From: Acanthaster planci
Taxonomy: Eukaryota
DNA: 64,000 nucleotides
Assembly: GCF_001949145.1 (NCBI RefSeq)
Contig: NW_019091356.1
Coordinates: 2,612,932-2,676,931, forward strand
Direction: 5' to 3'
Positions within the stretch are counted from its first letter, which is position 1, and the number at the start of each line of letters is the position of its first letter. Below are positions 1 to 47,400 of the stretch, piece by piece. Both the position numbers and the translations under genes were made by a program. The notes beneath the pieces are model-generated. The model was not told the DNA's origin and made no database searches. It worked only from the letters and a program-made list of their open reading frames with translations.

Positions 1-390
1 TTGGCAATCTACTTCAGTAGCTTTCCACGTATTCCACACATATGGAGCTTAGCTTTCAGATGCTCATCGCGGACAGTATCAAACGCTTTGGAGAAGTCAA
101 ATATGGCTATGTCCACTTGTTTACCAACATTTACTGGCTCAGCCCAGTCGGTGGTTATCAAAACTAGTTGGGTAACACAAGAGTGGTGCTTTTTGAAACC
201 ATGTTTAGTTGTCAAAATGTCATGCCCTTCCACGTGTCTACTAATAATATGCAAATGAATTATATGTTGAAGAAGCTTGCATGATATTGAAGTTAAAGAA
301 ATTGGCTTATGTTCCTCAATCAGAGTATGAAATTGAAGAACCTTAGCACATAAACTTCTCACATTAAGACTAAGCAGTCGTAGAACTTGA
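1..390 (-). mobile_element. Degenerate CR1/L2-like non-LTR retrotransposon ORF2 fragment, cut by the window edge
   Basis: ORF 9..593(-) contains RT motifs PISLTSISCKLLQHII, HGFKKHHSCVTQL and QVDIAIFDFSKAFDTV...GIRGKLLK. These are preceded by the APE-endonuclease-like start LRLLSLNVRSL. Confidence 0.85.
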
Positions 391-1430
391 TCTTTGCTCT
401 TCTCTTTTTTTGTAGTGAGACTTTGTTCTTTTGCTGCAGGTGCGCGTGGATTTTGGCACTTGGGTGTCACATGTAGAATACTTTCTTGCTTGATCCAAAT
501 CACGCCCATGTAATTTGTAAGGAAATCTAACTCCACAATCACTACTAAAAGCAAGATCAACTTCCCCCAATGGTGTGTAGAAATTATCTCCACATAGGTT
601 CAAATTGATGATTGAGCCACTGAAGTTGAGAAAATCGCAGAGGATAAAACCTAGTAAATGACGACTCATTTTGATAAGTATGATTCACACTTAGTATGAT
701 ACTCATCGCTAGAGACATCACAACATTCAATAGGCGTACAATTCTGACATTTATCACACTCAAGAACTTTGTCTTCATCCCCTACTTCTTTACGACACAC
801 GGTACACGGGAAAATGGGTGTGGTAACCACAGTTTCAGTCCCCTTGGGGCCAGGTTGTATCTGGACATCACCACAAATAATGATTAACAGAAGTTTAACA
901 GCAGTGATGATCTTAGGAGACCGTTTTTGTTTTCTTCAGAATGAGAGGGCAGTGAGTAAAAAACTCAGATTATTTTTAAAGAAATAGTCAGTCCCATGGT
1001 CTTAAAGCCATAAGTCATCAGATTTAAAGAGATATGCATCAGTTTTGAAGGCGTTTCAGGAAAGATGAGATTTGATAGCGAAAGTGGAATTTCTTTGAAA
1101 TGTAACTGTACCCTGATTTCACATAACTGGGATGCAAACAAAAACTCATAGGGTTACGAACCCATAAAATGTTGCAGGGTTATAAGTCACTCGGAGTGGT
1201 GACTTGCAGTTCTGTAAGTAGGTTTGGGCTAGACACATAAACAGGGCCCCTCGATTGCGTACTCCTCTGTCATGGGCCCTGCCTTCAGATATACTGTACC
1301 TGTAGGAATACCTAGATGAATCACGTGACGAATTTGGATTAAATTTGTATAACATTGATTGCCAAATGACAAAATAATGTACGAAAAAGTAAAGCAAAGC
1401 ATAGAAATAAACAAACCAAATCCAAATTAA

Positions 1431-4528: not shown

Positions 4529-7500
4529 ATGTCGCTGATAATGAAGATCCAGCAGCTGCAGGGCCCAGCCATACAGCAGATGCAGCTGCTGTACCAGCAG
4601 AACCGGTTCCCCCTTGAGGTCCGCTACTACTGCGCACCGTGGATCGAGGCCCAGCAGTGGTGGGTTCAGCTTCCATGAGCAATACCTCATTTACAAAATA
4701 ACAAGGAAAACAGCATTTTTGCTTATTTGGTTGGGGCCGTCTTCAAAAGTCTTTCAACTTATCCCCAGAGGGTTCTGTCTGTAGAAGAGGAAGGAGAGAC
4801 CCATATCAAGGAGTAGGTGATGAAAAAAATCACTTATAGTTTTAGATTTGGGAGGAAACTCCATACAAACATTCGGGAGGGAGGGAAGGAGGATGAACCC
4901 CACAGACTCTGGTAGGGACTGGAAACTTTGATCCAGTTGCCGGGATTTCAAACCCGGGCAAAAGGGCGAGGAAAGAACTGTGGCGTCAACTCGACTTGTA
5001 CTTTTCTCTTGCAGGGGGAACATTGACGTGGACAGCCCCAGCAGCGAGCCGGCCGCCACCATCCTGCTACAGCAGCTGGTGCAGCAGATCAACCAGAAGG
5101 CGGAGGCGCTGACGGGAGAAGATAAGTTCTTCCTCCGCATGAAGCTGAGCAACTTTGCCACCGAGCTCTATGTGAGTGTCAGCACTCGGCTCTTTACCTT
5201 TGCTGTAGTCGAGTCCCACGCAAGTCCTTTTCCTATTCACACTCACGAGTCCTTCCACAAGAGGAACACGGTCAGTAGTGATAAAAGAAGGCTTGTCAAA
5301 ATCCATAGGAAAACCCCGTGACGTCGCTAAAGACTACATGGCTTATGATGGACTAAAAGGTGTAAAGGACGACACGACAGGATTACCATGTATTCTTAGA
5401 CTCTTTCCTGTTCACAAACATTGCCTACCGTTTGGTGCAGGGGTCAAAATGTGGAGAATGTTGACCCTTAGTTGGCAAGGGCTTTTGCCTCAAAATTCGT
5501 TCAGTTCGAAGAAGGGAGGTATTTTCATTAAGCACTTATAAATAGTATTTGTTGTCGTTTTAAGAGTTGTGCACTGTTTCGTTTAAGACTTTGTGAATCA
5601 CTTGTTTGCTTTTGCATTGATGGCCTGCCAACCATTGGTAAGCAAAGCTATGACTGAGATAAAGTAGGAGAAACGAGAATCTGAAGTTGTTTTTTTTTTG
5701 AGCAGGCTGGCAAGATAAAACTAATGTACAGTTTGTAGGTTTTCTACATCTCACTAGTCTGTTTTGGTTGCTGCAGGAGACATACGGCAATGACTCGCTC
5801 AAGTTTGTAAGGGTTGTCCGTCATTGTCTTGAGAAGGAACAGAGGCTGGTGGACCAGGACACAGTGAGTATAAACATTTTCTGCTCGGAAATGTTACAGT
5901 TGGCTTCCAGAGAGGAAAGAAATTGCTGTGCGGCCACAAAAGCTTGGCTTGAGAAAGTTGCACGACCATCGGTTATGCATACCGTAAATTATGGCCTTAC
6001 AAGTAGCGTGATTTTTGCCGGTGTCTTGATGTTGGACCTGTGCCCAGCAAGTGTTCTGAGTTTCCTTTGCATTTTTTTTGAAGGTTTTGTCTGTCACTTC
6101 CTTTCACTGACCTCAACTTCCAAAAAAAAAACCCCAGTGCCGCGTATAATTTTCCAATATGTCTGTTTTTTTTTTTGTTCAGAATGGCTTGCAGGACAGC
6201 TTGGAGCAGGTCATGCCCGTGTCTGATGCACACAATGAGATTGAAAGCACACTGCAGAACCTGAAGTACAAAACTCAGGTGAGTTTGTCTGACTTGATTT
6301 ATGGATTGGTCGCCAAAGCATCACTGTCACATACACGTGCATGTACGCCATTTCACCAGATTTGTCTTTGTTTCAGATTTAGACATCCAAAGGATGTTGG
6401 TTTTGTTTCATATCACAGAAGTGTTGTTGCTTACCAATTTTAAAGCATAGCGACAGGTGTTTCCAGGAAACAAGACCGATGTTCAAACTCGTTAACATTT
6501 GGAGAACATTATAATTTTTAGGTCATCATGGACTACACATCCCCACCAGGAAATTTGTGGACATGGTTGAATTTACTATTTAGAAGGGACCTGATAATCA
6601 GCAATTACCTTCATTGGTATTCATCCTGGCCTTGTAGTTTTAACAGAGTGCTAAAGTTGCAGCTGGATTTCATAGATGCTTAATTTTTTGGGGGGGTCTG
6701 GTCTCGTGAACTTGCATTCATGTGTTTGGTGTACCCCTTCTGGTCACTATTACGCCCCTATGGTTTATGCAAATATTGTGTCCCCATAATGCCGATGTTA
6801 TTACATGGGTATTGAACTGTCAAAATCTCTGGACTTAAAAAGGTAAAAAATGTCCGTTTGTGCTCAGACCCATAAGTGTCTTGAAACCAAGTATGCTTTT
6901 CGATCATAATTTAGTCAGTTACCTTAAGGATGGCTGCAAATGTGGGACTGCACCTTTAAGAGAGTAATGTTGCAGTGAAACTTAAGCAGAGGAAATTGTG
7001 AAATATATTTAGGTCAGGGGTTACATTTTTTTGACAGAGTGTGAACAACAGATGTTGCCCATACAGAGTATTGGACATGCTTCTGTGAGCTGGGGGGGGT
7101 TGGGAAACGTGTGATAAATCACCCTCTTTATGACTGCCAAAATATTCATAATATCCAGTACTCTGCTAGGAACAGTGTGAAATGACATAATCTGGGATGA
7201 TATATGCGGTGCTGTACAATTCTTTTCACGTTACTTTGACTATTGTGTTGCCGGTTGACAAGTTTTCTTTTTATCCCTTCAGAGTGTGAAAGAAAGAGAC
7301 CGTGTCTTGTAATCCATGTACAACCTTTAGTGACTACACATAGGTTATTTTCTGGCTTCTTGTGCGCATTGCGCAGGGCAGCGGGCCAAATTGTAAGGTT
7401 ACATGTGAAGCACTAAGCCCACTCCTGGCTCCCGGTCAGATATTACTGTAACCACAGCTTGCAAGTATAGTTCAGTTTACTCAATTAATTGATGGGCATA

Positions 7501-10500
7501 TTGATCGATTATTCCATTTCGTTGTTTTATTAAGTTAATTAAAGAATAACTTTGTGACAAGAGAGACCTTTCTTCAGATGGTGACAGAGCATGGCGAAAA
7601 GTTCCTCAAACCCAACATTTGGAAAAAAATCTCAAGAAAGGAATTTCGGCCTTTAAAACACGAAGAAAGGTCATAGTTGAAAAGTGGAGGTTGATGAAGT
7701 GACTTGTAAAGGTGCATTAGCAGAAGGACCACCCTCACCCCCAAAAAATCCACAAGATGGACTGCTTGCTTCTGAGTTCTTCATTGTCGATTGAATCCAG
7801 AGTAAAAAACAGAGAACAAAAGAAAACTCAGTCACATGATCAGTCGGAAAGTGAATAATAACCCCCCAAAAAACACCCCCCCCCTAAAAAGAAAAACTTG
7901 CAGGCCTTCACAGCTGTATCTAGCTATGGAAGCTCGCTAATATATGTGAGCTTGTTCAAAGGAGTGGACCAGCTGTGATTTCAAGCCAGTGTAGCTTCCA
8001 CCGTTCCTGGCATGCCTATTATCACACGGCCCGGAGCCACGAGAATTCCCTTCCATTCAAGCAGCCGGGTCTCAAATTTAGGAGAAAAAAAAAAGCCTAT
8101 AAAATAACCCACGCAAACACTACCAGCTTTTTCCAGATACGGTTTAATAGATGCTACCCCCGCAAGTTTTTTTTTTAAATTGAAAATGCTTTTGCGTAAA
8201 GCAGCGGCTTGTTTTGTCATCAATTCACCATTCCAGGAACTAACCAACCGTTGAATGTCAATGATAATTTGATTTGTTCTTTTCTCTCTCTTTCTCTTTC
8301 TCTCTCTCTCTCTCTCTCTTTTTTTTGCCTCCATCAGGCCCAAGAGAAATTTCTTGGTGACATGCAACAGAAGCAGGAACTGTTTGCCGTCCAGTTGCAG
8401 GAAAGGAGGTGTATGTTGGAAAGTAAGCTCTCGCCCTGAAATTTATGGCCCGTGCCAGTGGGAATTTTCATTTCTTGTTACAGCCTGCTGCAGAGTGGTA
8501 TGTGGCAGGACCTATCCCACCTTTCTGCTTGGAAGCCTCTGTTGTGCTTCAAAAGTGCCATTAAGGCCCTTCCACAGCTGTGAAATAAAAAAAAAGGCTG
8601 TCACCTTGTCAATTCTTTTTTGAGTTTGTCAGGGATGTTTTTTTTTTCATTGCTGAAAATGTGTTGCTTCCATATGCCTGATGTACTTGGCGTTAATGCC
8701 TGTATAGACATATATAATAGTTCTCTTTTCAAATTGTAAGCTTAGAAATACATCTCACAGGAACAGTTTTGATGTTATGTTTACTGGCTGACTGGCTGCT
8801 TCTCGGAAAAGCACTTTTTTGGGTTTTGCTAAGTGTGTTGGTAACTCTCGGGGCTGGGCACGACGTCCCTTGCCTGCTGATGTGTTTGAAGTTTACCGCC
8901 CCCCGACCTTTGACCCATTTGCAGATACGTTGGCTTCGCTTCAGCAGCAGTACCCCCAGCAGGACGACCCCAACAGGAGGGCGGAGTTTGCCCGCTTCAG
9001 TCAGAAGAAGCTGGAACTGAACTCGCTGGTCCAGAATGAAGCCCAACAGCTCATGGGTTTGAGAATGGTAAGGCCACGCACAAAAAAGTTACGTTTCCTC
9101 TTTCGTGAAAAAGAGGACGGGGAAAACATTTTTTTGTGTTGGTGCGAAAATTTGTGGCCAAAAATATCAGGGTGAAGTGTTTTTTGCACTTTGTAAAAAA
9201 TAAACTTCCCAAAAATGTCCTTTTGTGTCTAAATTCATCTTATTGTCAGGTTGTTTTGTTACTTCTAGTTGGTTGGTGCCTCTTTGGTTATTGTGATAAT
9301 GAGTAGTTCTATATTTACGAGCAAAACTGTAATATCCTAGGAAGAAATATCAATGGTACACTGATTTGTGTAACAAAACATTCTTGATTATTTTTTTATC
9401 TCTTGCTAGCCAAAAAGTTCTTTTCTTTGACGAATCATGTTGTTTATTAGACTGTGGCTGTAAGCCAGTGAGCAACCTTGTCTCAGAAATCTTTTTTTCA
9501 GTGAGCAAAGTTGACTTTGAACAGTAATCATACAAAATGAACAGTGTTTTCTCTTTGACATCCCACTAACAGTGCCCGCAATTGTCCTCAATAGCTTCAA
9601 CAGTTTTCAATGTTTAAACAAGTGCACTTTTCAATAAATTTGACCCCGAAAGGATGTCAGATAGTTTTCAAATGTAGACGAGGAATAAAGTTGCGTAGAA
9701 AGTCAGTCTGTGAAAAATTCGTAAAATTCTCTGACTCTATACTATTAATATTCATTTTGCTCCCTCATCCCATCTTCTCCCGTGCCCTGTCCTTTCCCTT
9801 TTGCCTCAGCAACTGGCCAAAATGCACCAGGAGACCTTCATGATGCTCAGCAACGTGCAGAGCAAGGTCCTGGGCGATGAGCTGAAGATCTGGAAGCGGC
9901 AGCAGCAGCTGGCCGGCATCGGAGGCTCACCGGAGGGGTCCCTGGATGTCCTACAGTCCTGGTGGGTGCCGCCTTCCAAGACCCTTTCGTAATCTTAGGG
10001 ACTTGGAAATAGAGACTCGGCATCAGCGCTTGAGGCAGCACCGTCAGTGTTTTGAACCGCGAGTCAGAGAATTGTACAAGTCTATATACTGCTGCCGATT
10101 TAGAGATTGTTGTTCTTGTGTGCTCTCTGTTGCGACAGGTGTGAAGCCCTGGCTGAGGTCACATGGCAGAACCGGCAGCAGCTGCAGCGGATTGAGATGC
10201 TCAAGCAGCAGGTGCCCATGAACGCACCGGCCCAGGACGTGCCGGACCTCAGCAACAACTTCACGGGCCTGCTGTCGGCCCTGGTCAGCTCCACCTTCGT
10301 CATTGAGAAGCAGCCGCCCCAGGTCTTGAAGAAGGAGACAAGATTCTCGGCCGCCATCAGGTATGAAGGCGTGCGATGAACGTGTTTCCACAAGAGTGAT
10401 AGATTAATTGCCAGCAGTCTCCTGCTTCGACATAGGATCTCTTTGGCCTTTTTGTCTACCCCTGCAAGAATGTATAGCATCTCAACCTTATCTTAAAAAA

Positions 10501-13500
10501 TGCCACGCGCCGCAACCCAGTAGTCGGCACCTGTTCTGTCTGTCTATCTCAGTGGACTCTGTTTGGACTGTCTCTTCAGTGTAATTTTTCTTTCTCCTCG
10601 TTAAGATTGCTGGTAGGCGGCAAGCTGAACGTTCACATGAACCCGCCCCAAGTCAAAGCCACAATTATCAGGTAAGACAAAATACCTCCCCCTTACCAGA
10701 CAACCCTTTTGCCTTCATACAGCCGTGACACAAAAGTGTCACTTTGGAAAAAAAAATCACTGTTTGAGCTCAAACGGCAGTTTTTGTAATAGAAAGATAC
10801 CTGTGGCCAGAAAGCACTGGGTAACTCCACCCAGCGACGTGCTCAAGATGCTTATACATTTGATTTCGTGGAAAGATTTCCATACCGAGACATCACGAGA
10901 CACCCTTTGCACAAACCATTTGAGACAGGTCTGACAAAAGTGGGTTCCTCATCATTGCTTCAATTTTTCCCCACTGAATCTGACCTTTTATTGTCTTCTG
11001 ATGGCCGACGAAACTGAGGGGAAATGTTGGTGATGTGCTTGAGTGTGGAATTCTTTCTTATCAGTGAGGCACAGGCGAAGGATATGCTCCACAACGAAAG
11101 TGCCAACTTTAACGAGACCAGCGGGGACATCATCAACAACTCGGGCGTTCTGGAGTACCACAAGGATTCCGGAGTCCTAAACGTCACCTTCAGAAACATG
11201 GTAAGAAAATTTGTCGTTTATATGCGCAATACCCGAATTGTTTATATGTGTTGGTTTGTGTTGCCCAAATATATCAAGTCACTGTTGACTTGATCTTACA
11301 TGCAGGTCGTCAGGGGAAATACGTTGAGGTTCCGTTTAGACATTTATAGTATTAATTTTGTTACACATTAGCATGTGATGTTAAAGCAAAAATAGTTTGA
11401 TATGTGATTTCCAGGTGGTTTTTAGATTTATTGTATTGTATTGCCCTTTTGTTCTCCAGTCCCTGAAGAAAATTAGAAGGGCTGACAGAAGAGGACAGGA
11501 GGTGAGTAGTCTGGTCACCAGACCAAAAGGTTCTGACTGTTTAGGAGAATCTTGCGATGCAGTAGCCACCACTGTCACCAGGCCCAAAGAAAATTCATTC
11601 CTTTTCAGAAAAATGTCTTGAATTTTGGAGACATTTGTCAAACTCCTTTTAGGTTGAATTTCAGTTGTCATCATAAAGGTTTGTAAATAGGCACAACACG
11701 TGAATCAACCTTTTCCCATCCAAGAATAATCCATTTTTGTAGTGGACTATTTTGGTTGCCGTGGTTACCTGACCTAACATCCAGGATGGGAGGACTGTAG
11801 GGCAGGGAACCAGACTAGGAGTGGGGACCAACAAGACAGATTTACAAACCAAATATAGAAGAAGAGTGATTGAAGGGAACCAATGCAGTGATCCCTCTGA
11901 AAAATTCTCTGACAATAGTGGGGCATTTTTTTTTCTTCATATTTTTGTATATCCACAAAAAAGACATTTTGAGAGTGTCATAGTTGGTGTCTTGGGTTTG
12001 AGATGTTGAAATTGTGTCGGGGGAGGAGTTTAATATTACCAAAAAAATGGACTGCGGAAAAATTGAAACGATGCGTTTCTATCCAAACCTGTGCAGGCTT
12101 ACCCAAACTGAGCACTTTTTTGCCCATCTGTTTTGGTTGTCCAATCCTCCAGTTTGTGACGGAAGAGAAGTTCACGTTACTGTTCCGGTCCAATTTCTCG
12201 GTGGCCAGCGGTGAATTGATGTTTCAAGTCAGAGTAAGTAGAGCAGAGGATGGGAGTCCCCCCTCCCCCCGTCAGAAATGGAATGAACCTGACATCAAAG
12301 CTTGTTATGAAATACACATTCAACCTGTGGTCGGTGTCGGGTGTCGGGTGGCGGTGGCGGTTATTTAAAATGATTTGAATATAATTTTCATTTCAAAATG
12401 ACTGGCCTCTTGACTGGTCCCGTGATGTTGGCTGCAGTGATCAACTGCAAATATGGTCTCAACATGAAAGTGTTCTCAACTTATGCTACCTTTACCTTGT
12501 TTTTATAATTGTTATGAAACTGTCGCGCATCCTCACGTTTATGTTTCAAGATCATTGAAACTGTCAGTGTTTTCTAAAAGGGACTTTTAAAAAACTATAT
12601 ATTGCTTGATTTCTGTTATCCCAACTCTATGGGTATTTTTGCACTCAAATCTTCCCCCAAACTTGTGCTGTATTCTGAGAGCAATGACATATTTATATTG
12701 AGCATCAGTACTTGGGCGTTTGATCCCAAATCTATCAAAATCCCACAGAATCATTCATTTGGTATTTAGTCAGAACTGGGCAGTTACGTGTAAGGCTAAT
12801 GTAACTTTTTTTTTCCATGTGATGTATTATGAATGCAGCTTGGTCAATACTGTGTATAACTTAATTGAACTTTTTGTTTGGTTGGTTTTTGTTTCCAATG
12901 TATCGTTGGTTTTTGGATGGGATCTAACTGGATTTGTATTTTCAACAGATTTTTGTCTGCTCTTCTTTCCTAACTCGATCGCAAACTTAACCACGATCAC
13001 GTGGTCTGTTTGGAGGAAAAAGTTGTTTCCAGTAACTTGACTGACAATAAAATTTGGCTGTATACGAACTGGCAGTTTATTGAAGTCTAATTTTTAAAAT
13101 TCATTTGATGAAAACATACTCGGAAACAAAGTAATTCTACAATTAAGATTTCCCTCTTATTGGAGCAGATTCATTAGTAAGTACTTTCGTTTAAGCATAA
13201 GAACACTAGAACCACGTAGAAATGTTTGAAAGCCATTCTCAGTTATTCCTGCCCATTCAGCAAGCTTTGAAATCATTTCTGAGCGGATGAGGGCAACCAA
13301 GGTAAAGTTTCTTGCTCTTGCTTGGGACAGCAAACGTATTGATCCCTGTGAGGGTTTAAAAAACACTCGTATTCAGACACCAGTCAAGACATTTTGGACC
13401 CTTTTTTGGGCCAGTGTTACCGGAAACACATTTTTTTTTTTCTTCTTTGATCTGTGCTTGTCCGCTGCACTGTGCAGCAGGTGAAACTACGACGCTCGGA

Positions 13501-16500
13501 GGGAAAACTAAAATAACAGGAATTTCTGGTTCAGTCAGAAAAGGAAACCAGTCGGATATGCTAGCACTCCTCATTGCAAACTTGTAGAGACATTTGTTTG
13601 CATTGCAGGTTTTTTTTTTCACAAGAATGCAAGTGGCATTCAAACCATGCAATTTGCTTTACGCTTTCTTTTTTTTTGCTTGTTACCTTTGGGAAGAAAA
13701 AAAGCAACAGTTAATTTCATGCTTTCCATATCCCATTGCTCATTCCTTTACCATTCATCGCGTCAGTGAAGAAAAATCACTGGCGCTTTATAGGAAAAAA
13801 CCTTTCATTGCTGCAGGTCATTTTATTAAACTTCTCAAGAAAGAAACTCTAACGTTTTGGATTATTTGAAGGGAAGGCTGCCACTTTCACATGGGTTTGA
13901 AAGCCAACATGAATTTGAACGTTTCATGTCGTATCAAACACTTGCATCGCCAATTCAACTGAAACATCAAATTGGCTTCATTCTCACATTTTTCTGAAGC
14001 ACCAACTGGCCCTGACATGTTTTTTTTCTCCAAATTTCTAATTCACCCTTTACAGAAAAGAAAATAAAAAAAAAAAAATCAAAAGTCTTTCTCTCTCATT
14101 TCTGCTAGTGTGTTGTTTGTCCCCCGTTTTCCACTCTTTGATTTTTTTTGCATTCTAGACCCTTTCGCTGCCTGTAGTTGTGGTGTCGCATGGTAACCAA
14201 GAATGCAATGCTTTAGCAACCATTCTCTGGGATAATGCTTTTGGTGACTGCTCATCAGTAAGTTTTTTTTTTCCGGCCGTCCCGGCCCAGTGTTGGACAG
14301 CGAAGTGTCTGAGAGCAGGGCAGGCCGTGGGATGGTCAAAGACGGTAACAAACCCTTGCATGGCTTCATGCTAACAGTTTGCTTTGGACAGTGTGGTGTT
14401 TGCTTGCTTGCCAGCTAAATCGTTGTTCATGCTTAACCAATTAAAATGGCTATCCGCATTCTTGCCAAAAAAATCTTCCCCCAAAACTTCTCCAAAAAAA
14501 AAATAAAAAAAGATGAAGAAATGTACCTTTTATTTCTCCTATTCTACCGATTCTGAAATGTCATTTTAATTCATTTTCAGCCAATTGACACCGTATTAAA
14601 AACTGAATAACCAGTAACCGAAAAAATCAGCCAAAGGTCAATCCGTGCTTGTTCCTGCCCACATTTCATGGACAGTCCGTTGTCGTTAACACTGGGTCTT
14701 TTTTTTGTTCTTAGTCACTAGCTTGTGATGTTATAACGGGGCTCTGCTGCCCCTGGTTGTTTATCCAACAGACCATGTCCCTGCCGGTCGTGGTGATTGT
14801 CCACGGTAACCAAGAAGCCAACGCATTGGCCACGGTCCTGTGGGACTATGCCTTTGCCGAGCCTGTAAGTTTGTCGTTTGATCGTTAAACGAAAAAAAAA
14901 ATGACATAACAAGGTCACGTCCGTCCCCCTGCTTCTCCCCTTCCAACCTGCTAGTCTGCATCAGGGGGTCGGCCTGTTCACGGGCTTCATTCTAAGCTTT
15001 AAGACCACTAGACTAGCTGCTCAAGAAATCTTCCAGATCAGAGAGAGATTTTTTTCCCATCTGTGGTGGAGAAAAAATTGTCCTAAGCGCTACCAGACTC
15101 GTACTTCAGATAGTTCATTGGTCAAGTCAGAAATTTTTCTGCTAACTGGAGAGGTACGAGGAATTATAGTGGGTCAAAACTAAATAAATGGACTGATATA
15201 TTTTAGAGGTGGTGACTGTGTTTACTTACATTATTGATTCTGTTGCAGATAGCTAACCTTTCTCCGGATTTAAATTTTTTTTCCTGACATGACAGGGTAG
15301 GATACCATTTGCCGTCCCTGACAAGGTGCCGTGGCCGGAAATGGCCCAGGCCCTCAACTCCAAATTCATGGCCGTCAATGGTCGTAGTTTGTCCAACGAG
15401 AACATGCAGTACCTGGCCATGAAGGCATTCAGTGGTAAGACTTAGAATACGTTGTTTTGGGGAGTCCTGTGCTGATGCAGTATGCCTTATTTACAAGGCT
15501 GCCATTTTTTGATTATGATCCTGTATCTATCCTGTCCAGTACAATCTGTTCGATGGGTGGTGCCAGACTATTTTGAGTACCAAGCCTCACTTTCATTTTT
15601 TTCTTAAATGTGGCCCAAACATAAAGATATAGTTGACCAGAAATTTTAAATTACTCATCAGCATAAATGACATTCATTTGTAATGACTTTTTTTTGTCTC
15701 TTTCATTTGTATTTCCTGGTTCCTAAAATAAAAAAGTTAACATTGTTTTGAGGCTGACTTGGGAATAGAACCTAGTTATGAGATTGTGAGGTATTTTTAA
15801 ATAGCTTACGAGGAAAAAATGTCATTCTGGGACCCAGGCCGTGTAACTTGATAAGCCCAGTTCTTGCGTGTGATTTCTTGGGACTTTCCCAGAGCCAGGA
15901 TGTGTGACTCCATATGGTGAAATTTTAGAGCTTTGCTAAAATCATTCAGGTTTTGCTGTACTTGCTAGCATTTTGTACCATTGTGAGATTTGCGTCACAT
16001 GTCCAGTGTGGCAGGTGTTCAGAGTCGATGAGGTGGTTTCACGTTTCCATTTTACAGGTCAGAACGTACAGACTGATGACTACAACAGCATGTACATCAG
16101 CTGGAGTACATTCAACAGGGTATGTCGTTACGATGTCACACTTATCACGGTTCTTCTGCCCCGGTTGAAACTGTCATTTCTTGAAGCGATCTTCATCTGT
16201 GGTTTTCTTTGCGGAAGTCTTAATCATTCAGTGTAATCATTTCTGGAAGTGATTTTCACATGTGGTTTTCTTTGCGGAAGTCTTAATCATTCGAAGTAAT
16301 TATTAGCTTTTCAACAACTTTTTTGGGTAGGATCCCCTGCCTGGCTGCACGTTCACCTTCTGGAAGTGGTTTCACGGCGTCTTGGAGCTGACAAGGAAAT
16401 ATCTGCGCGCACCGTGGAATGAAGGGTGAGACGTCATTGATAAGTAGAAATCCAGCCTACGTGCCAGCTGCTACGTGTTTCCACAATCAATTTTTTCTGT

Positions 16501-19500
16501 ATTCGGTACACGTCTTGTGTTCTTGTGCAAGTAGACGGCACCCAAGCCCCGCCAACAATCCATCCATGAAATATTAACTGCTTCAAGCCCTGTAATAAAG
16601 TAGGTTTCTGGGGTGATCCACGGAGGAGTTTTCCCCCCAAATACGGTGGCTCATGGAGGGAGGTTGGTTTTACAGCACGAGAAATGGGAGTAGCCTGTGC
16701 TTGCTTTATCACACCTTTTCCACGGAGTCTCTTTTATTTCAGTGGTAACTGATTAATGTCAATCCAGTTAATGATGTGAACCTGTTTGCGTACAAAATCT
16801 GTTGAAAATTAACCCTAACCCTCCTCAATCCTTCACCTGTTGGAGGACTGAGGAGTGTTAGGGTTAACAAGAAGTTTCCCAAACGGACCTGTCACAGGAT
16901 GTTTGAACCCAGCTCTGTAGCGAAAGCATGTGGGAACATGCTCAACACGCACACCCATGTGCAAGTCTACACGGTATTGGTTGCTGGGGCTTTAGTTGCC
17001 ATGGTTACAGTAATTTTATTGCTGTAGGTATAGTTCGTTTGGCCATGCACATCAGGATGACAAAGAGAATGAATACCATGTGACTAGCTCTCAGCCAATC
17101 AAGTCCGTGGTTGAGAGTGAGAGGTTATATGATCTGTCATCTTGTTTCGCCATCCTGTACTGCAGGTCTATCCTGGGCTTCATCACCAAGGAGCACGCCC
17201 AAGAGCTGCTCCTGACCAAGCAGACGGGTACCTTCCTGCTGCGCTTCAGCGACTCCAAGCTGGGCGCCATCAGCATCACGTGGGTCAACGAAGACCCGAC
17301 CACAGGTCAGAGCTGCAGGCTGGAAGCTGCTGAATGCTTTTGCGGCACGGGGCCAGCAATCCAAGCCTCTCCGTCGCTCCACCCCCCCACCCTCCCCCCC
17401 CCACCATCCCCCCACCATCCCCCTACCGTCTTCCCACCATCCTCCCCACCGTCTCTCTCCCCTTCCCCTCCCCCTGTCGGTTTTAACAGCTTGTGTCAGC
17501 AAGCTTTCCAACCTTCAATACATGCACATCGAGTCCATATTTCAACTTTGAAGTGAATGCAGATAAATTTACGTAAGTCAGCAGAGATGCTGACCAACTC
17601 TCCAATCTTTCTTTTGCTTTCAGATAACTGGGGATCGAAATACTATTTCCGCACAAATATTGGGACCTTGAAAATTCTGCGCAACAGAGTGCATTCCGAA
17701 GTTGCAAAATTCTGTACTTTTTCTGAACACAGAGAAGAAGGTTGTTCCTCAAGAAGAATTTCTACCTCAGAGTTATACTTAATAGTGCGAGGAGGCATCC
17801 CAAACTTGCACTGCTCGCAATTGATGCGTTGCAAATTTGACGCCCCCTCCTTCCGTCCCTTCTCGACTTACAGGAGACAGGCAAGTGCTGAACCTGCTGC
17901 CCTTCTCCAGCGAGGATTTCCACATCCGTTCCCTTGCCGACCGCATCCACGACTTGCCCCACCTGACCAACCTCTTCCCGGACATTCCCAAGGACACGGC
18001 GTTCGGTAACTTCTACACACCAATGGACGGTGAGTTCCTCCGGCGTATTTTTCACTTAGTCTGGAATGTTTTCCTTGTCTCCAGCTCTCAAAAATCATGG
18101 AGAGGTCCCCCCCATTTTATAATTGGCTCAAGAAATCCCTTACAAGTGCTGTGAGTTGGTGACTAAATAAATTAACAAGGTAATTGATTTTGATTTGCCC
18201 TAGATATAACTTAAAAATATCGTTTCAAAATACACTGTAGCATTTTTCTTGCATTTTTCTTCTGTTTAAGTGGCATCACCATCTGCTTTCCAATGCCAGA
18301 CTTAATGCATAATGTAAAAATCATGGTAAATTCCAAGTTAGAAAAAGTGAGCTGTTAGATTTCTGTTCACATGTATTAAGTCTGATTAAAATCAGATACT
18401 AACTTCTTTAATAGTTCAAACTGTCCAATTCATATAATGTGCTTTTCTTGGAATTTTTTTTTTTATCTGCAGAAGTACTCCCGCAAGCTGGAGATGGATA
18501 CGTCAGTTCTGTACTGGTCAGTAAGATTCCCCAGTTGAGGTCAGTATCTTAATGGCTGAGTTACTATCTTTCTTTTTATGTCATCCCAACCGCCTTGGAA
18601 ATTCTCCAACTTTCATTTAGTTGAGTTGAGATTCGGGGATTCATGCAGTGCCCATGGCTCTGCCGTCTGTCGCAAAGAATGGATATCGTTTTGTTGTTGG
18701 CAATCACTGTATTTCACATTTTTGCAAAGACACTGTGATTTCAGTAACTTGGGCCGTGTCCGAAACGGCCTTCCAGAGCTACGGCTAGGTCTATTGTCTA
18801 CGCATCTCCGCACATCTCCATTGGAGGGAAGACCTAGACCTAGCTCTAGACAACAGATGCGGATGCAGCCTAAGGCTCCCAAACAAACTTGTATTGTGCT
18901 AGAGTGTCAATTGTTAGTGCATGAAGTCTGTAATTGGCAGAGCCAAGAAAGTCATATATCGCTGTTTTCAATTTCAACATCTTGGAAGGTCATGGAAACT
19001 TGTCCAAAACGGCAGAGGTTTTGGGAAAATTAGGGAATTTTGTTGGATCAGTTGCTCCTAGATTATTTCCTTTTGTGCAAATTAATTTTTTGTACATTTG
19101 GACTTTAGGCTTAGTCAAATTTGACCTTCCATTCAATAAAATATTTGAATACTCGGTTGCACTGAATTTCCTTTACAGTACAAATTAAATTTGTTTAGTT
19201 TTTAAAAACTTAAAGAAAATGTCTTTTTTTGGCCTTAATGTGGGTATATGTATTTTCAAGTACATGCACTTACACCTTGAAATATGCATTCTGATGAAGG
19301 TTTGTAACTAAGGATTTGAATTTCCCTCTTTTTTGAACTTCATTGATATTCATCTCTGTGTGCTCAATTTTGAAAAAAGGAGCACTGGGATATTTGACCA
19401 ACAGTTGAATATCTGGATATTGGAGTAATCAGTTTGACCCTCATGTATGCACGGTGCATTGGTGACATGTAGGCGCGGACAAACGTTTTTAATGAGCAAG

Positions 19501-41400: not shown

Positions 41401-44400
41401 CCTCAGGATGGGGGTGGTCTCCCAAGGCAGCTGCTGGATTTGCTGCCAAAAGTATAAGGACAAAACAGCGGTTAATCTATGTGATTGAATTTACTGTTAA
41501 ACAAGTCTGAATAAGCCAATTCGGAATTTCAAAAAGCCAAGGTCTTTCGAGAACAAAGCGCATGCATGAGTCAATGTATGGCTACACTAATAGGACTGAC
41601 TATTGTGCGTGCGTACTGCTGTTCCCGCATGACCTCGGACATGCTTCAGTTTGGGCATGCACTGTTGGAATACCGATCTGCCTCATTGATTCATTCATAA
41701 CGCTGATTTCATTGCTCTTTGTGTATCCGGAGAAAAAAGAGGCCCAGGGGTGTAAGTGAATTATCCCTTCAGATGAAGTGTTTATTCTCAGCTTCAGGTC
41801 TGACTACTTCCTGGGCAACAACTGCTTCAAAGTAGACGTTTAAAAATGGACTAGGCAGCGATGTTTGACGAGGTCATGATTGAACTTGAAGTCCGACGTA
41901 CCTTGTCCAGAATGAGAATCACTGGTTCCCTGCGCGGTGTTGGTGCCAATTTTTCAGCCAGCTGCTTGACAGAGGCCGTAAGACTGGAGTGCTGCTCAGA
42001 GCCGGGTGAGAGACCGGTCAAACTGGCGAGGGCGCTGCTCAGCTGCAGCTTGCTGAGCTTCAGACATGATTCCAGGAGGCACTAAATTGAAGACGAGGAA
42101 TGACAAAACATTTTTTAAAAAAATGTGATCTAACGGCGGAGATGGTAGCAATTCAAAGTCCAATTCAAGTCACAAGTCCTTTGGTCTGGTCACAAGTCCA
42201 GTCAAAAGTCATTTGGTCAAAACAAAAGGCAAGTCACAAGTCTCTCTGTTAGAGTACAAGTCAAGTCACACATATTTATCCTAGTCACATGTCAGTAGGA
42301 TAGACCAGACTCGAAGTCAGAATTTGAAGCTATGAGCCGAACAAGGTCCTTTTTTTAAATTTCATGCAAGGCATAAATTGATAGACCTGATTTAAAAGTT
42401 GACGGGGTCGCTCGAGTAGATTCTGACTTGCATTGGTAACAAGTCATCTCTTGCAAGTCCAAGTCAAGTCACAAGTCATAGGTGGTGGTTACAAGTCAAG
42501 TTACAAAAATAGCAACTTGAATCTCAGTCGCATGACTCAAGTTAACAATTCTAGCAGTGCCTAAGATGACAAGATCAGATGTCAAGACTGCACAAAAGGG
42601 GTGACACGGTGGGAAAAATGCTGAGCAGATCTAATAAACTTGTTTTACGGAATTTACAATTGCTTTGGTATTGGCATATAGAGGATTTTCAGTCACGGAA
42701 GTTTCAATGGTCAACATTCAATTTACGCAAATGTGTGCAGAAATGCTTGCCATCGAAATCTCTCAACCCTCTGGCATTCATGAAACTGCCAATGAAAATA
42801 CACAGATTTGAAAATGCAAACGCCTCCACAGACATGGTATGCGTTCTGCAATGTCTTTGCCCGTCATGTAACGTCACATGGAAAACCTCTATAGCGCTCA
42901 AGAACTATAACAGGGAAACTTTCTTTTCAACAAAGAAGAATTCAATTTTGGGGGGGGGGCCGAAAGAGACATGAGTCTGAAGACACAAAAATGCACTTGA
43001 GAATGACAAGAGGTGACAGAGGGGCCCTTCAGAAATATCGTTTTCAAATTTCCTTTTTTTCAGCAGCCTACCTGACACATCTGGGAGTCCACCGTTCTCT
43101 GGCAGGCAGACTCCACCAGGCTCTTGAACTTCTTGGCAGCCTTATCCATTGCCTGTCTCTCCTCTTTGCACTTCCTTGCTCCGATCAGAAGTCCCTTCCA
43201 CTGCCCCAAGAAAGTCTCCTCCATTGCCTCGGTGAGGGCCTGTGGATATCCGGAGAGATACAGACCTTTAACTCACATCAAGCTACTATAAAAATGTTAC
43301 GAGATGTTACAAAGCACAAGGTCCATTTTTTCAAAACCATCATTTAAGGCTATTCTGAGGGAAAAATCTTGACTATCCAAAATTGATCAAGCCCTGAATA
43401 ATACATTCTCCATCATGCTAAACCCTTAACCATGAAATGATGGAAGCAGAAAGAGGACATAAATGAATCCAGCAATATTTCACTGGACATTCCTGATGGA
43501 TCCCTGTAATGGTGGAATCCTTTGTGTCAGGCTTGGGGGGGGAGCACATGTTAGGAAACGGCGGATCTGTGTAAGAGTCATCACAGTGCTTACCACCATT
43601 GGTGGGGGCCGCTGCAAATGAATAGTAATCGCGATAGTGATACCAAAGCCAAGGATTTTGTCAAGATGGAAAATGTGTCAGCGAGTGGCAAACAGAAAAG
43701 GCTTATTCGGCAGACCTGCATTCGCTGGTCCAGCTGCTGTCTGCAGGTCCACCAGGCTCTCTTGTCTGTCTCCTTCACGCTCAGCTTGCTCTCGGCCAAG
43801 ATGCTGTCAAACTCCGCCAGGAGGCTGGTGGCTGATAAACCCAGCCCACCGGTATGCTGCTTGCAAATGAGATAGAAAGGTAGCAGTCGGTACGAGCCCG
43901 AGCCATAAAGAGCGGTGTTCATTACCTAGTAAGGGAGCATCTCAAAAGTCAGAGCGCTAAAGAATATGCCAACGCAGGTGTGATCAAAGTTTTCCCTAAA
44001 GGAAAGGACATGTTGACTTTTGAAGTACTCCCTAATACAGTAATTTGCAAAAGTTTAAGACCACCTGGAATTTTATTGCCATTTTGTTACTGGGCCTGCA
44101 TTACATTGTCTCACTAAATGATTACTTAACATGTTTTTACATGGTGCATAACATCAGTGCAGTGCTATATACCAATTTGAGTGAAATTCCTTAAGTATGA
44201 TCGAGGGCTACAAACCCTAATCACCATGCTAGTGTGGCTAGTTCCTTACCATAGCCTGATTGATGATGACTGGCTTGTGACCACTGCTGAGGCGACACAT
44301 GACCAAGTGGTCGGCATCGGTCAGGCTGCCGGTCAGGGACACACTGGATGAGACCACAGACAAAATGCACACAGTCCATCCTGTGAACGGGATTGATATC

Positions 44401-47400
44401 GTTCCAAAAAGTGATGTAATTTGTGTCCATGTGATATTTGGGCTAAAATATGAGGCCGTGGAACTCACTGTTATACATGTGACAATACGACCTTAGTCAC
44501 AAGTCACCAGAACCTCTTCTGGCCTGTAAGCAAAATCTTGTACAATGGAAAACCAACAGAAAATGTCAGAGGTTTCATTTACATAATGCCAGTATCATCA
44601 ATAATATGCAAAACTCAGTAAATGAACATGAAGAATGATTTCTTTTCCAATGCATATTAAACCATGTGACAGGTTTTGCTCTTTAAACTGTATGCTGTTG
44701 CAAGGATCCTCTTTACAGAGAGAGTAGACTGTACATTTTTGGGGGATCCAGTGGTGAAGACACAGGGAACTTCGGCATCCCCCCTCAGAATCCTACCTTG
44801 CATATGGCACACTGCTGAGAGTGTATGACTCTTACCCTCGGGTAAAGCGGTCAGGGTCTGCTGCACCACGTCTGGCTGGGCGTCTCCCACCGAGCCCTCG
44901 CAGAAGTTGAACAGTGCTCTCTGCTTGGCCAGATGCTGTAGGGTGGCCCCGTGTGGCGTGCTGGCCTTGCTGCGGCCGTCCAGCGCCATCTCGGCCAGAG
45001 ATTCCGTCAGATTCTGGACGCCGTCCGCGTCAAGCTCTTTCTTCAATTTCCTGAATTGGGAAGCAAATTGAGATTGGGAGAGATGAAATGGAATGTCATA
45101 AAAAATTGCTGACAGATAAAAATTATGCCAAGAATCTTAAAGAACTAATTGTCCTCTAAAAACTTGTACAAAACTACAACAAACCACCACACTGAAAACC
45201 AAGACAAGTTTAAACAGGGAGAGCAAGAGAGAATGACGACTTCAACTCACTTCATCTTCTTGGCCAGACTAGCCAGCTTCTGGTGACGCAGGGTCACAGC
45301 TGCGGCCTCGCTCAGGTAGTAAGCTGCCTTCATTGGCTCCCTGTCGCCGTGGCAGGCAGCCAGTAGCTGGCACACACGGCGATACAGGAGGGAGGGGGCA
45401 CGGTGACAAACCTGGGCGCTGATCTGCTCCAGGCCGGCGATCACCGAGTCGAGACTGGTGTCTGTGTAAGGTTGAAAAAAGTTCGAATACAAGATCTCCA
45501 GATAATGAGTATTAAGGGTAAGAAGAGTGCATTGAGTTGATTACCAGAAACCAAACTTTGCCACCAACGGACGCTTTTCTCTCACGAGCAAAAATCATTT
45601 ACAACTTAAGGTGGGGAAAGTATAAGAACTAGGGAGAAAGTGGATTGAAAATGGGTCTGCATTCAGAATTTAGGCCTCAAGCAGTGAAATTCACAAGCCA
45701 ATATAACTTGGAGAATTGTGCCTCTTTAAAAACAGATGTGCCTTTTGACAAACACTTTGACGTTTCTGATGTGGTCACAATTAATTCAGTACTGAATACA
45801 TGTTCACTTCAGTGACTTTCATGGTCATCATGTTCATGATGCCATCTTTCAACTGTTGCAACACTCTCAATCTAAATCTACAAGGGAGGACTTTTCATTG
45901 TATTTTTGGAAAGAATGTACTGAAATCTAAATTTATTCCACTGTGCCACACTAGAGGGAAAAGTTCTATCAGCAATTTCTGTAAACAAAGTCAAGAAATG
46001 GTCACTCTTTCAGCCCTGACCTAAGTTGGATAACCCAGTTTGAGCGATTCCATCCTGGTCAGCAATAACAGCCTGTTGCTGTGGCCTTCTCCTTGTTGAC
46101 AGAGCATCCACGGGAGCATTCTTTGCCCCTCTTGGTACCTCGGTATCTTCAACAGTCCATTTTTTGGCAGTCTTCCTTCTGGATGTTGCTGGCTTCCGGG
46201 CTGTCTTACGGCGGACATTGAGGGCGCTTCTGGATTCGTCAGAGTCTGAGGCCGCTCTGGGGATTTCAATCTCGTCCAGATCCGGCAAGGCGAGAGAGGT
46301 TCTCTCTGAGAGAGAATCTGGGGTCGGGATGTCACGAGTTGACGGGCTGCTCTCAAAGTCAAAGTTCAGACTGCCATGGTTTGGGCTCCCGGGAGACAGT
46401 GAGTGCACCTTAGTGGGTGATTCCAGCTCCAGGAAAGTTGGCAGAAGATCCAGGAGCATATTGTTGCTGACCTGGTTTACGACCTCTGACCGCAGGTTCT
46501 CAACGTTGGGCTTCCGGCCTCGTTTCGATCTCGTCGCTGTCACCTTGGGCTCGGCCAGTTCTGTGTCTGCTGCTCGGGGTTTTCTACCCCGCCTAGGTTT
46601 GGTTTCTGTGTCTCCTACTTGGGTTGGTTGTATAGACTTCTGTGAAGGCTTGGATGTAGCACCTTCCCCCATTAGGTCCTCATTTTCTAGTGGATTTGAG
46701 AAAGTTTCTGCATCCAAGTTGAGCCTCACTGACTTTTTGGCTGTTTGTCTCTTTGATTCTGTGGCAGTCTTACGGCCTTTGTTCTCAGTTTCATCTTCAA
46801 ATACATCGCCATCATCTGAATTACACAAGTCTATGATCTCAGTGCTGCGCTTGCTGATTTTTTTCGCACTTTTGCTGGACCTGCCACGTGTTGCTTTCCT
46901 CTTCGTCTTTGTGGGACTTGGCTCATCAAAATCAAATGCACTCAGCGGAGCCGAGTGGAGAGGTGTGGCCTCAACCTCGACAGTTTTCTTGGCGGGCCTT
47001 TTCTTTTTGACACTGAACATCAGGGCTCCCTTCTTGGACCTTGACGCCACGTTATGTGGTGTTGCTTGGACAAGTTGCTGTAACTTTCTGCTACTTTTGG
47101 TCGAGCAAGCTGGCATGTGGGAAATACCGTCGGAATCATCCTCATTATCGCTTACGTCACAGAAGATACCCAGCTCAGTGACTTTCTCTGAGAGTTTCCG
47201 AGACACTTCAGGCCGCTGCATTCTTTCAGAGAACACCATGTCTTGGAACTGGGTCTGGTGCTTGGTCCCTTGCTTGCCCAGGTCTAGTTGGTGAAACTGT
47301 GAAACAAGGTCTCCTTCGTAAGATGGCACATCCTTGTGATGTCTACTGCTTGGCTGCAAATCCCATGTTGAGAATGTCAGATCGCCAACTGTTGTCTCAG

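What the first reader, a model, noticed from the sequence alone, without database searches (positions are those of the whole stretch)
14284..14698. Long-range RNA stem joining the two ends of the intron between the duplicated exons
Seen: colinear antiparallel complementarity in five blocks. GGCCCAGUGUU 14284-14294 pairs with AACACUGGGUC 14688-14698 (11 bp, 1 GU). GACAGCG 14296-14302 pairs with CGUUGUC 14678-14684. UGUC 14306-14309 pairs with GACA 14671-14674. UGAGA 14310-14314 pairs with UUUCA 14664-14668. GGGCAGG 14318-14324 pairs with CCUGCCC 14654-14660. About 330 nt are looped out. The stem starts 26 nt after the 13a donor and ends 73 nt before exon 13b. Known: intronic base-pairing controls mutually exclusive exons in Dscam1, 14-3-3zeta and Mhc, and very short donor-branchpoint distances block splicing sterically. 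Inference: both exons preserve frame, so NMD cannot enforce exclusivity. The stem would cut the effective donor-branchpoint distance to roughly 50-65 nt and could prevent 13a-13b joining.
Basis: partly seen in the sequence, partly recalled or inferred. Interest (0 to 1): 0.82.

Follow-up and report, generated by a model that had tools for sequence, protein, structure and literature searches.

The report
RNA stem between starfish STAT exons
In a starfish STAT gene, the two ends of the intron between two alternative versions of the exon that likely touches DNA are complementary and are predicted to fold into an unusually strong RNA stem, which likely helps stop the cell from splicing both versions in, a known kind of splicing control that is untested here.

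Summary
The five blocks are real. The gene is STAT5-like, matching Acanthaster planci RefSeq isoforms that carry exon 13a or 13b; both exon types occur in 9 of 10 echinoderm genera tallied. The predicted stem (45 bp, -66.1 kcal/mol) is matched by 0 of 200 shuffles and 1 of 241 window tiles, and is the only outlier among 14 introns of the gene. The one orthologous intron found (L001) also has a strong stem (0 of 77 shuffles) ending 76 nt before exon B, but from non-alignable sequence and starting 206 nt after the donor, so no covariation could be tested and the steric geometry is not conserved. The folded donor-to-branch distance (45-64 nt) is borderline and lies in the range of splicing-promoting yeast zipper stems. 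Seven RNA data sets show only 12-13b-14, so exclusivity was not observed in reads. Closest precedents: Dscam exon 17, ATE1 R3R4. The scan earlier noted the parallel tunicate STAT exon pair (e1-9518761), not this stem.

The parts
12153..12233 (+). STAT coding exon 12 (constitutive, upstream of the pair)
   Evidence: read joints 11-12 and 12-13b
14159..14257 (+). exon 13a, 99 nt, 33 aa, Ser-His type
   Evidence: peptide found exactly in RefSeq isoforms P0020 and P0021; no junction listed in 7 RNA data sets
14237..14263 (+). predicted local hairpin that hides the 13a donor
   Evidence: pair probabilities 0.74-0.91; lowest unpaired probability of 19 window donors, third-highest opening energy; a similar hairpin at the A donor of L001
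14258..14771 (+). 514-nt intron between the duplicated exons (GT..AG)
14284..14343 (+).
14275..14337 (+). rival local hairpin using arm 1 (-31.6 kcal/mol alone; state 12.8 kcal/mol above the stem state)
14357..14375 (+). loop element: UGCAUG hexamer (RBFOX-type, recalled) and a CUAAC branch-like word; similar words in L001
14470..14484 (+). 15-nt pyrimidine-rich word identical in the L001 intron; near-copy at 12646-12660; unpaired in the window fold
   Evidence: (0 of 500 shuffles share 15 nt)
14637..14698 (+).
14684..14690 (+). branch-point consensus (A14689) inside arm 2, followed by a U-tract 14697-14712 and unused AGs at 14714 and 14721
   Evidence: only YNYURAY match within 100 nt of the 13b acceptor; A14689 paired at P 1.0; no joint to those AGs listed
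14714..14753 (+). two short hairpins (14714-14729, 14738-14753) around the weaker branch candidates A14717, A14728, A14736
   Evidence: pair probabilities 0.94-1.0; candidates
14772..14864 (+). exon 13b, 93 nt, 31 aa, Val-His type; the form seen in all RNA data laid
   Evidence: 61 reads join 12-13b and 58 join 13b-14 in 4 raw runs; peptide in RefSeq isoform P0001
15296..15434 (+). STAT coding exon 14 (constitutive, downstream of the pair)
   Evidence: read joints

Best explanation
The two ends of the intron between STAT exons 13a and 13b are complementary and are predicted to form a standing 45-bp stem that likely makes this 514-nt intron behave like a too-short spacer, so that 13a is probably not joined to 13b. 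Shown: the complementarity, its statistical excess, its restriction to this intron of the gene, the exon pair and its spread in echinoderms, and bulk use of 13b. Predicted: the stem forms, hides the branch consensus at A14689 with its decoy acceptor, and leaves only branch As that lie about 45-64 nt (43-53 along high-probability pairs) from the 13a donor. Inferred: U1 on the 13a donor and U2 on the 13b branch site then cannot assemble together, while 12-to-13b and 13a-to-14 splicing are unhindered. Which exon is chosen would be set by something else: 13b by default, since the 13a donor is predicted to sit in a hairpin, and 13a when proteins bind the conserved loop words.
For: Stem -66.1 kcal/mol, 0 of 200 shuffles; z -6.5 while 11 of 11 other introns and 2 of 2 more introns plus 3 of 3 stretches of intron 12 are at chance. 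The orthologous intron L001 also has an outlying stem (70 bp, -76.6, 0 of 77 shuffles; two downstream control stretches -46.0 and -34.6) that ends 76 nt before exon B. Both stems are stronger on the sense strand (-66.1 vs -46.8; -76.6 vs -44.7). All 6 variant sites seen in the intron in two contig sets fall in the loop (chance 0.07-0.11, not significant). A standing stem fits 13b being the bulk product with no joint to the decoy AGs. No rival partner reaches any probability in the 1.7-kb fold. A tunicate-type locus has the same exon duplicated with a 53-nt intron (L033). [quoted passage not shown]
Against: In L001 the stem starts 206 nt after the donor and the folded distance is 224-267 nt with pairs at P >= 0.8, 74-116 nt at P >= 0.5. 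The arms of the two species do not align and the shared words lie in the window's loop, so no compensatory change could be shown. Linkers of 42-85 nt define yeast zipper stems, which are modelled as compatible with the A complex and promote splicing. Introns 14865-15295 and 15435-16057 have predicted distances of 41-77 and 11-35 nt and are spliced. The branch point is not mapped. No 13a junction was listed in 7 of 7 RNA data sets, so neither 13a use nor the absence of a+b joining was observed when 13a is on. 1 of 241 natural tiles reaches the same stem energy.
Confidence: 0.4

Rival explanations
1. Switch by masking (ATE1 R3R4-like): A14689 is the real branch point of 13b; when the stem closes, 13b is shut off and 13a is used; in most cells arm 1 is trapped co-transcriptionally in its local hairpin, arm 2 stays open and 13b is used.
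For: A14689 is the only YNYURAY match in the last 100 nt and is followed by the strongest U-tract; it is paired at P 1.0 in the stem. Arm 1 can form a -31.6 kcal/mol local hairpin about 350 nt before arm 2 is made, and that hairpin is the MFE of some transcript prefixes. In ATE1, restoring R3R4 alone favours the upstream exon.
Against: The hairpin state is 12.8 kcal/mol above the stem state, yet 13b is the bulk form. Two AGs lie between A14689 and the used acceptor; the first is not hidden (unpaired 0.46-0.49) and the second is in an open loop. In L001 no YNYURAY lies in the outer 3' arm or within 260 nt of exon B. Many constitutive introns of the gene lack a strict match, so the weaker candidates remain possible.
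Confidence: 0.2
2. The stem only compacts the intron or positions protein-binding words (zipper or RNA-bridge role) and tunes efficiency; exclusivity comes from RNA-binding proteins and the weak, hairpin-hidden 13a donor.
For: What is conserved in sequence between the window and L001 is the loop words, not the arms. The 13a-type donor is predicted hidden in both species. The linker fits the zipper window, and zipper stems turn over between species. In L001 the UGCAUG words sit just 5' of the stem base.
Against: A pure zipper would favour 13a-13b joining, which gives a duplicated DNA-binding segment; only 2 of 43 echinoderm protein models show both copies. In the window the words lie inside the loop, not next to the 13b branch region. 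Protein binding is inferred from recalled motifs only.
Confidence: 0.2
3. Neutral: a chance or decayed inverted-repeat pairing with no role in splicing.
For: Whole-intron MFE z is only -2.0; 1 of 241 tiles reaches the stem energy and three come within 7 kcal/mol; no sequence conservation of the arms; the L001 stem is long and rod-like, as an old foldback insertion would be; the whole genome could not be searched.
Against: Outlying stems in the same intron of two echinoderms, ending 73 and 76 nt before exon B, and none in 13 other introns. Arms are single-copy in the window at up to 3 mismatches; a whole DNA contig set laid at 85% likeness gave one contig of even depth over the arms and no extra records (a filter drops some records). 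Sense-strand excess with 6-7 G-U pairs.
Confidence: 0.15
4. Docking/selector system: arm 2 can instead pair upstream of 13a (13404-13430) to loop out 13a, and arm 1 downstream of 13b (14944-14990) to loop out 13b.
For: Each is the second-best partner found: -20.4 against -29.4 for the outer blocks of arm 2, and -39.1 against -54.3 for arm 1.
Against: Both have probability 0.0 in the 13350-15050 fold, and both rival sites are tied up in local hairpins there. No partner for the donor-proximal element of L001 downstream of exon B stands out.
Confidence: 0.05

Closest known systems
Dscam1 exon 17.1/17.2 (Yue et al. 2013, RNA Biol 10:1822, PMC3917985; not held, seen only as a title in reference lists and one sentence in PMC7969005)
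   Same: A two-exon exclusive pair for which steric hindrance combined with RNA secondary structure is the proposed mechanism.
   Different: I could not read its geometry, so the match of detail is untested; PMC7969005 ties it to distant branch points, whereas here the candidate branch points are near the acceptor and the stem supplies all the shortening.
Human ATE1 exons 7a/7b, R3R4 helix (Kalinina et al., PMC7797038; passages read)
   Same: A helix that hinders the 3' splice region of the second exon of a frame-keeping pair; loss of R3 pairing gives double inclusion.
   Different: ATE1 has a competing partner R1 that overlaps the first exon's acceptor; here no competing partner has thermodynamic support, and the ATE1 elements are conserved in sequence.
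Yeast zipper stems (Rangan et al. 2025, PMC12350175; passages read)
   Same: Stem joining the two ends of an intron, at least 10 nt from the donor, total linker 42-85 nt, poor sequence conservation between species.
   Different: They promote splicing of constitutive introns; here the enclosed intron should not be spliced as such.
Short-spacer or distant-branch-point exclusive exons (vertebrate OGDH 4a/4b, PMC7969005; 57 human clusters in PMC5740500; passages read)
   Same: Exclusion by a donor-to-branch distance under about 50 nt.
   Different: There the distance is linear (25-41 nt in OGDH); here the linear distance is 431-478 nt and only folding shortens it.
Docking/selector systems of Dscam1 exons 4, 6, 9, 14-3-3zeta, Mhc, MRP1, srp (PMC6071210, PMC4691838; passages read)
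   Same: Long-range intronic pairing at a cluster of duplicated exons.
   Different: They loop out an exon and use competing selectors; this stem encloses no exon.

Membership tests
STAT5/6-like transcription factor gene | STAT_int, STAT_alpha, STAT_bind, STAT_linker and SH2 domains | tested here: met
   Pfam scan of P0021 and P0001; window exons match these proteins exactly
Mutually exclusive exon pair | Tandem homologous exons of equal phase encoding the same protein segment | tested here: met
   71% identical peptides, both phase 0
Mutually exclusive exon pair | Each exon is used in mRNA, never both | tested here: inconclusive
   41 of 43 echinoderm protein models carry one copy, 2 carry both; reads show only 13b in 7 of 7 data sets
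Steric-hindrance exclusive exons | Donor-to-branch distance under about 50-60 nt | tested here: inconclusive
   linear 455-478 nt; folded 43-53 nt in the window but 224-267 nt in L001
Steric-hindrance exclusive exons | Mapped branch point, and double inclusion when the distance is lengthened | not testable with these tools
   no lariat joints listed; needs RT-PCR and a minigene
Docking/selector competing structures | One docking site with two or more competing partners | tested here: not met
   rival partners have probability 0.0 in the 1.7-kb fold
Docking/selector competing structures | Pairing loops out an alternative exon | tested here: not met
   both arms lie within the one intron
Conserved functional RNA structure | Compensatory covariation in orthologues | tested here: inconclusive
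   one orthologous intron only; arms not alignable; 6 of 6 within-genus variant sites avoid the arms, not significant
Zipper stem (Rangan et al. definition) | [quoted passage not shown] | tested here: met
   26 nt; 30 or 38 nt; totals 56 and 64 for A14728 and A14736; A14717 misses by one (19 nt)
Zipper stem (Rangan et al. definition) | Promotes removal of the enclosed intron | tested here: inconclusive
   no 13a-13b joint listed, but 13a was not in use in these samples
MITE or foldback transposon ends | Many genomic copies with DNA-level terminal inverted repeats | tested here: not met
   single copy in the window; not among the 25 longest inverted repeats; no extra contigs on the arms; whole genome not held
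Known Rfam family | Match at gathering score | tested here: not met
   none in L001; three weak minus-strand matches below gathering score in 12234-15295, none on the stem

The most novel reading that the evidence does not exclude
The DNA-contact exon of the invertebrate STAT5/6-like gene was duplicated separately in echinoderms and tunicates to give isoforms with STAT1/3-like or STAT5/6-like contact residues, and the same steric rule keeps the copies exclusive in both: by a 53-nt intron in tunicates and, in echinoderms, by a long intron folded down to a virtual short spacer, with the stem rebuilt from unrelated sequence in different echinoderm classes.
Probability: 0.2. Interest if true: 0.72.

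Novelty: new member of a known kind. Interest (0 to 1): 0.5.

Why it matters
If the stem works as inferred, it is a compact, two-exon test case for a question with little direct evidence: whether a folded intron can stand in for a too-short spacer, and where the line runs between a stem that blocks and a zipper that helps. The exon pair itself swaps a residue (Ser or Val) that aligns with STAT1 S459 and STAT6 V414, which form the thymine-methyl pocket (PMC5737217, passages), so one echinoderm gene may make two factors with different DNA affinity. No paper on this pair turned up in four searches, which cover open-licence PubMed Central and bioRxiv only; the isoforms are already in RefSeq models.

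Tried and rejected
No whole genome is held, so no genome-wide copy search. No listed holder was on record as RNA; raw RNA runs added by species label were laid instead. The half-against-half duplex test timed out and was replaced by smaller tests and a stem statistic. The arms-only shuffle (0 of 2000) is circular and is not counted. More orthologous introns: the metagenome scan kept 80 of 140 matching stretches, 1 of the 80 has the echinoderm pair; genome contigs gave 1 irrelevant 13-residue match and viral contigs none. With two non-alignable introns no covariance model or pair count was attempted. An apparent second stem ending about 70 nt before 13a is at chance (7 of 60 shuffles). The 15-nt shared word has no outstanding pairing partner in the window. 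Docking/selector rivals rejected on probability. Rfam gave nothing. Yue et al. 2013 is not held; PMC11802352, PMC7404189, PMC4691838 and PMC12962786 passages did not describe the exon 17 geometry. Not tested for a stem: the 2059-nt intron 6279-8337, the 177-nt intron 9962-10138, introns after 17166. One control intron was one base too long. The joined translations have boundary slips outside exons 11-14 and were used only for the frame of that part. Unspliced RNA cover across the intron in X18 and X20 was not counted: those runs are only guessed to be RNA. No supplements were read; those of PMC12350175 and PMC7969005 may bear on the distance thresholds.

Full report
What the locus is. The finding lies in a STAT gene on the + strand. 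A 73-residue exon peptide is 100% identical to an Acanthaster planci RefSeq protein, and that protein has the five STAT domains. Exon 13a (14159-14257, 99 nt) and exon 13b (14772-14864, 93 nt) are 71% identical in peptide and both are phase 0. RefSeq isoforms P0020 and P0021 carry 13a, P0001 carries 13b. Among 43 echinoderm-labelled proteins tallied (four unnamed or partial records left out), 14 carry only the A type, 27 only the B type and 2 both in tandem; both types occur in 9 of 10 genera, Amphiura showing only B; 7 of 7 hemichordate proteins are B-like. The genera span sea stars, urchins, sea cucumbers and a crinoid (classification recalled). The segment aligns with the end of the DNA-binding domain of solved STAT5 and STAT6 chains. 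In passages of PMC5737217, STAT1 S459 and Q463, and STAT6 V414 and Q418, form a pocket for thymine methyls, and N460 or H415 contacts bases. Exon 13a has Ser and 13b has Val before the His, so the pair swaps a pocket residue (inference from the alignment); that paper also found that N460H alone barely changed STAT1 specificity.

The observation. The stem is in the MFE and centroid folds, with pair probabilities of 0.88-1.0, and it holds in a 1.7-kb context. Whole-intron energy is only modestly low (z -2.0, 4 of 100), and an ends-only duplex test that keeps the composition of each end gives 8 of 500. The long-range stem itself is reached by 0 of 200 shuffles and by 1 of 241 natural tiles of the window, with three more within 7 kcal/mol. 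The strongest argument is placement: of 12 introns only this one is an outlier (z -6.5; the others are reached by 8 to 30 of 30 shuffles), and two more introns and three stretches of intron 12 are at chance. The stem is stronger on the transcribed strand (-66.1 against -46.8; 7 G-U pairs). Each arm is single-copy in the window, and a whole DNA contig set laid at 85% likeness put one contig of even depth over the arms, which argues against the ends of a recent multi-copy element; the genome itself could not be searched.

RNA evidence. In four raw RNA runs from two studies, of which 18-19% was read, 61 reads join exon 12 to 13b and 58 join 13b to 14; no joint involving 13a, no 12-14 skip and no joint to upstream AGs was listed (threshold: 3 reads with 2 starts). 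Three contig sets guessed to be RNA show the same two joints only. So 13b is the bulk form in these samples, whose tissues I do not know. Use of 13a rests on RefSeq models and on its conservation; exclusivity was not observed directly. In the two contig sets that cover the whole intron, six variant sites all fall in the loop; the chance of that is 0.07-0.11.

The orthologous intron. A metagenome scan kept 80 of 140 matching stretches; one, L001, has the echinoderm A and B exons in the same order, with a 1096-nt intron. Its peptides point to a non-asteroid echinoderm (inference). It too has an outlying long-range stem: 70 pairs, -76.6 kcal/mol, 0 of 77 shuffles, against -46.0 and -34.6 for two downstream stretches. 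It ends 76 nt before exon B (73 in the window) but starts 206 nt after the donor. The arms of the two species do not align. What is shared lies in the window's loop: a UGCAUG word, a CAUGCUAA word and an exact 15-mer (0 of 500 shuffles share 15 nt), which also has a near-copy in intron 12. So a strong stem recurs in position, but it is not the same stem and covariation cannot be scored.

Testing the steric idea. Papers put the steric limit at about 50 nt (PMC7969005 and PMC5740500, passages) or 60 nt (PMC13762713, passages). With the stem closed, the linker to the candidate branch As at 14717, 14728 and 14736 is 45, 56 and 64 nt, or 43-53 along pairs of P >= 0.9: at the limit. Three results cut against a simple reading. 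First, Rangan et al. (PMC12350175, passages) model linkers of 42-85 nt as compatible with the yeast A complex and call such stems splicing-promoting zippers. Second, two constitutive introns of this gene have predicted distances of 41-77 and 11-35 nt and are spliced, although their closing helices are not significant. Third, L001 keeps 224-267 nt at P >= 0.8 and 74-116 nt at P >= 0.5. In favour, a tunicate-type locus (L033, L034) has the same exon duplicated across a 53-nt intron, and Ciona intestinalis (2 of 6 isoforms) and Clavelina (2 of 4) have models with the second copy; an earlier scan note reports the same design (e1-9518761). That is a parallel, not a test.

Arm 2 contains the only YNYURAY branch consensus (pattern recalled) within 100 nt of the 13b acceptor, at A14689, followed by a U-tract and AGs at 14714 and 14721. 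The first AG would add 19 codons in frame and is not seen in reads. In the stem A14689 is paired at P 1.0. Either the stem permanently hides a decoy branch and acceptor, or it hides the true branch point and acts as a switch. Arm 1 has a local hairpin alternative (-31.6 kcal/mol), but that state is 12.8 kcal/mol less stable while 13b dominates, which favours the standing stem. Partners that would loop out either exon exist but have probability 0.0. The 13a donor is predicted to lie in a hairpin with its own exon end (lowest unpaired probability of 19 donors, though two constitutive donors cost more to open), and so is the A donor of L001; this could explain why 13b is the default (inference).

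Verdict. The kind of mechanism is known: Yue et al. 2013 on Dscam exon 17 (not held; title seen and one sentence) and the R3R4 helix of ATE1 (PMC7797038, passages). Four searches found no paper on this STAT exon pair or its intron (listings only). It is a real, well-placed, untested structure in an interesting exon pair: a new member of a known kind, interest 0.5.

Noticed in passing
L033 1524-1768; L034 428-672: Tunicate-type STAT locus with the same exon duplicated (93 and 99 nt) across a 53-nt intron; the second copy has Asn where the first has His, the STAT1-type base-contact residue. Ciona intestinalis and Clavelina models carry this second copy; Styela and Ciona savignyi members listed do not.
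   Followed up: partly
window 12646-12660 and 14470-14484; L001 1334-1348: A 15-nt pyrimidine-rich word occurs twice around the exon pair and nowhere else in 64 kb, and exactly in the orthologous intron; probably a protein-binding site.
   Followed up: partly
window 13717-13760: Dense YCAY cluster upstream of exon 13a, the kind of site recalled for NOVA proteins; read, significance not tested.
   Followed up: no
window 13974-13991, 14362-14379, 14983-15000: An 18-nt word family occurs once before 13a, once between the exons and once after 13b (repeat family D8).
   Followed up: no
L001 1387-1396: A UGCAUG word overlaps the likely branch region just upstream of exon B, a position that would repress B if an RBFOX protein binds (recalled rule).
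   Followed up: no
window 15555-15686: RNA reads from elsewhere pile on this part of intron 14 with loose ends on both sides, so it holds short multi-copy repeats.
   Followed up: no
window 16809-16867: Tight inverted repeat, 27-nt arms, 89% complementary, 5-nt loop, with telomere-like words at its ends.
   Followed up: no
window 16174-16299: Tandem duplication of 63 nt, 87% identical, in a STAT intron.
   Followed up: no
window about 44000-58000, minus strand: Open frames that read like separase (recalled likeness, not searched); an N run at 51524-51816 lies within.
   Followed up: no
window 12-935, minus strand: Open frames that read like a decayed LINE endonuclease/reverse-transcriptase fragment (recalled likeness).
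   Followed up: no
STAT 3' end (P0021 against P0020): RefSeq isoforms X1 and X3 differ by an alternative C-terminus after residue 753; not mapped to the window.
   Followed up: no
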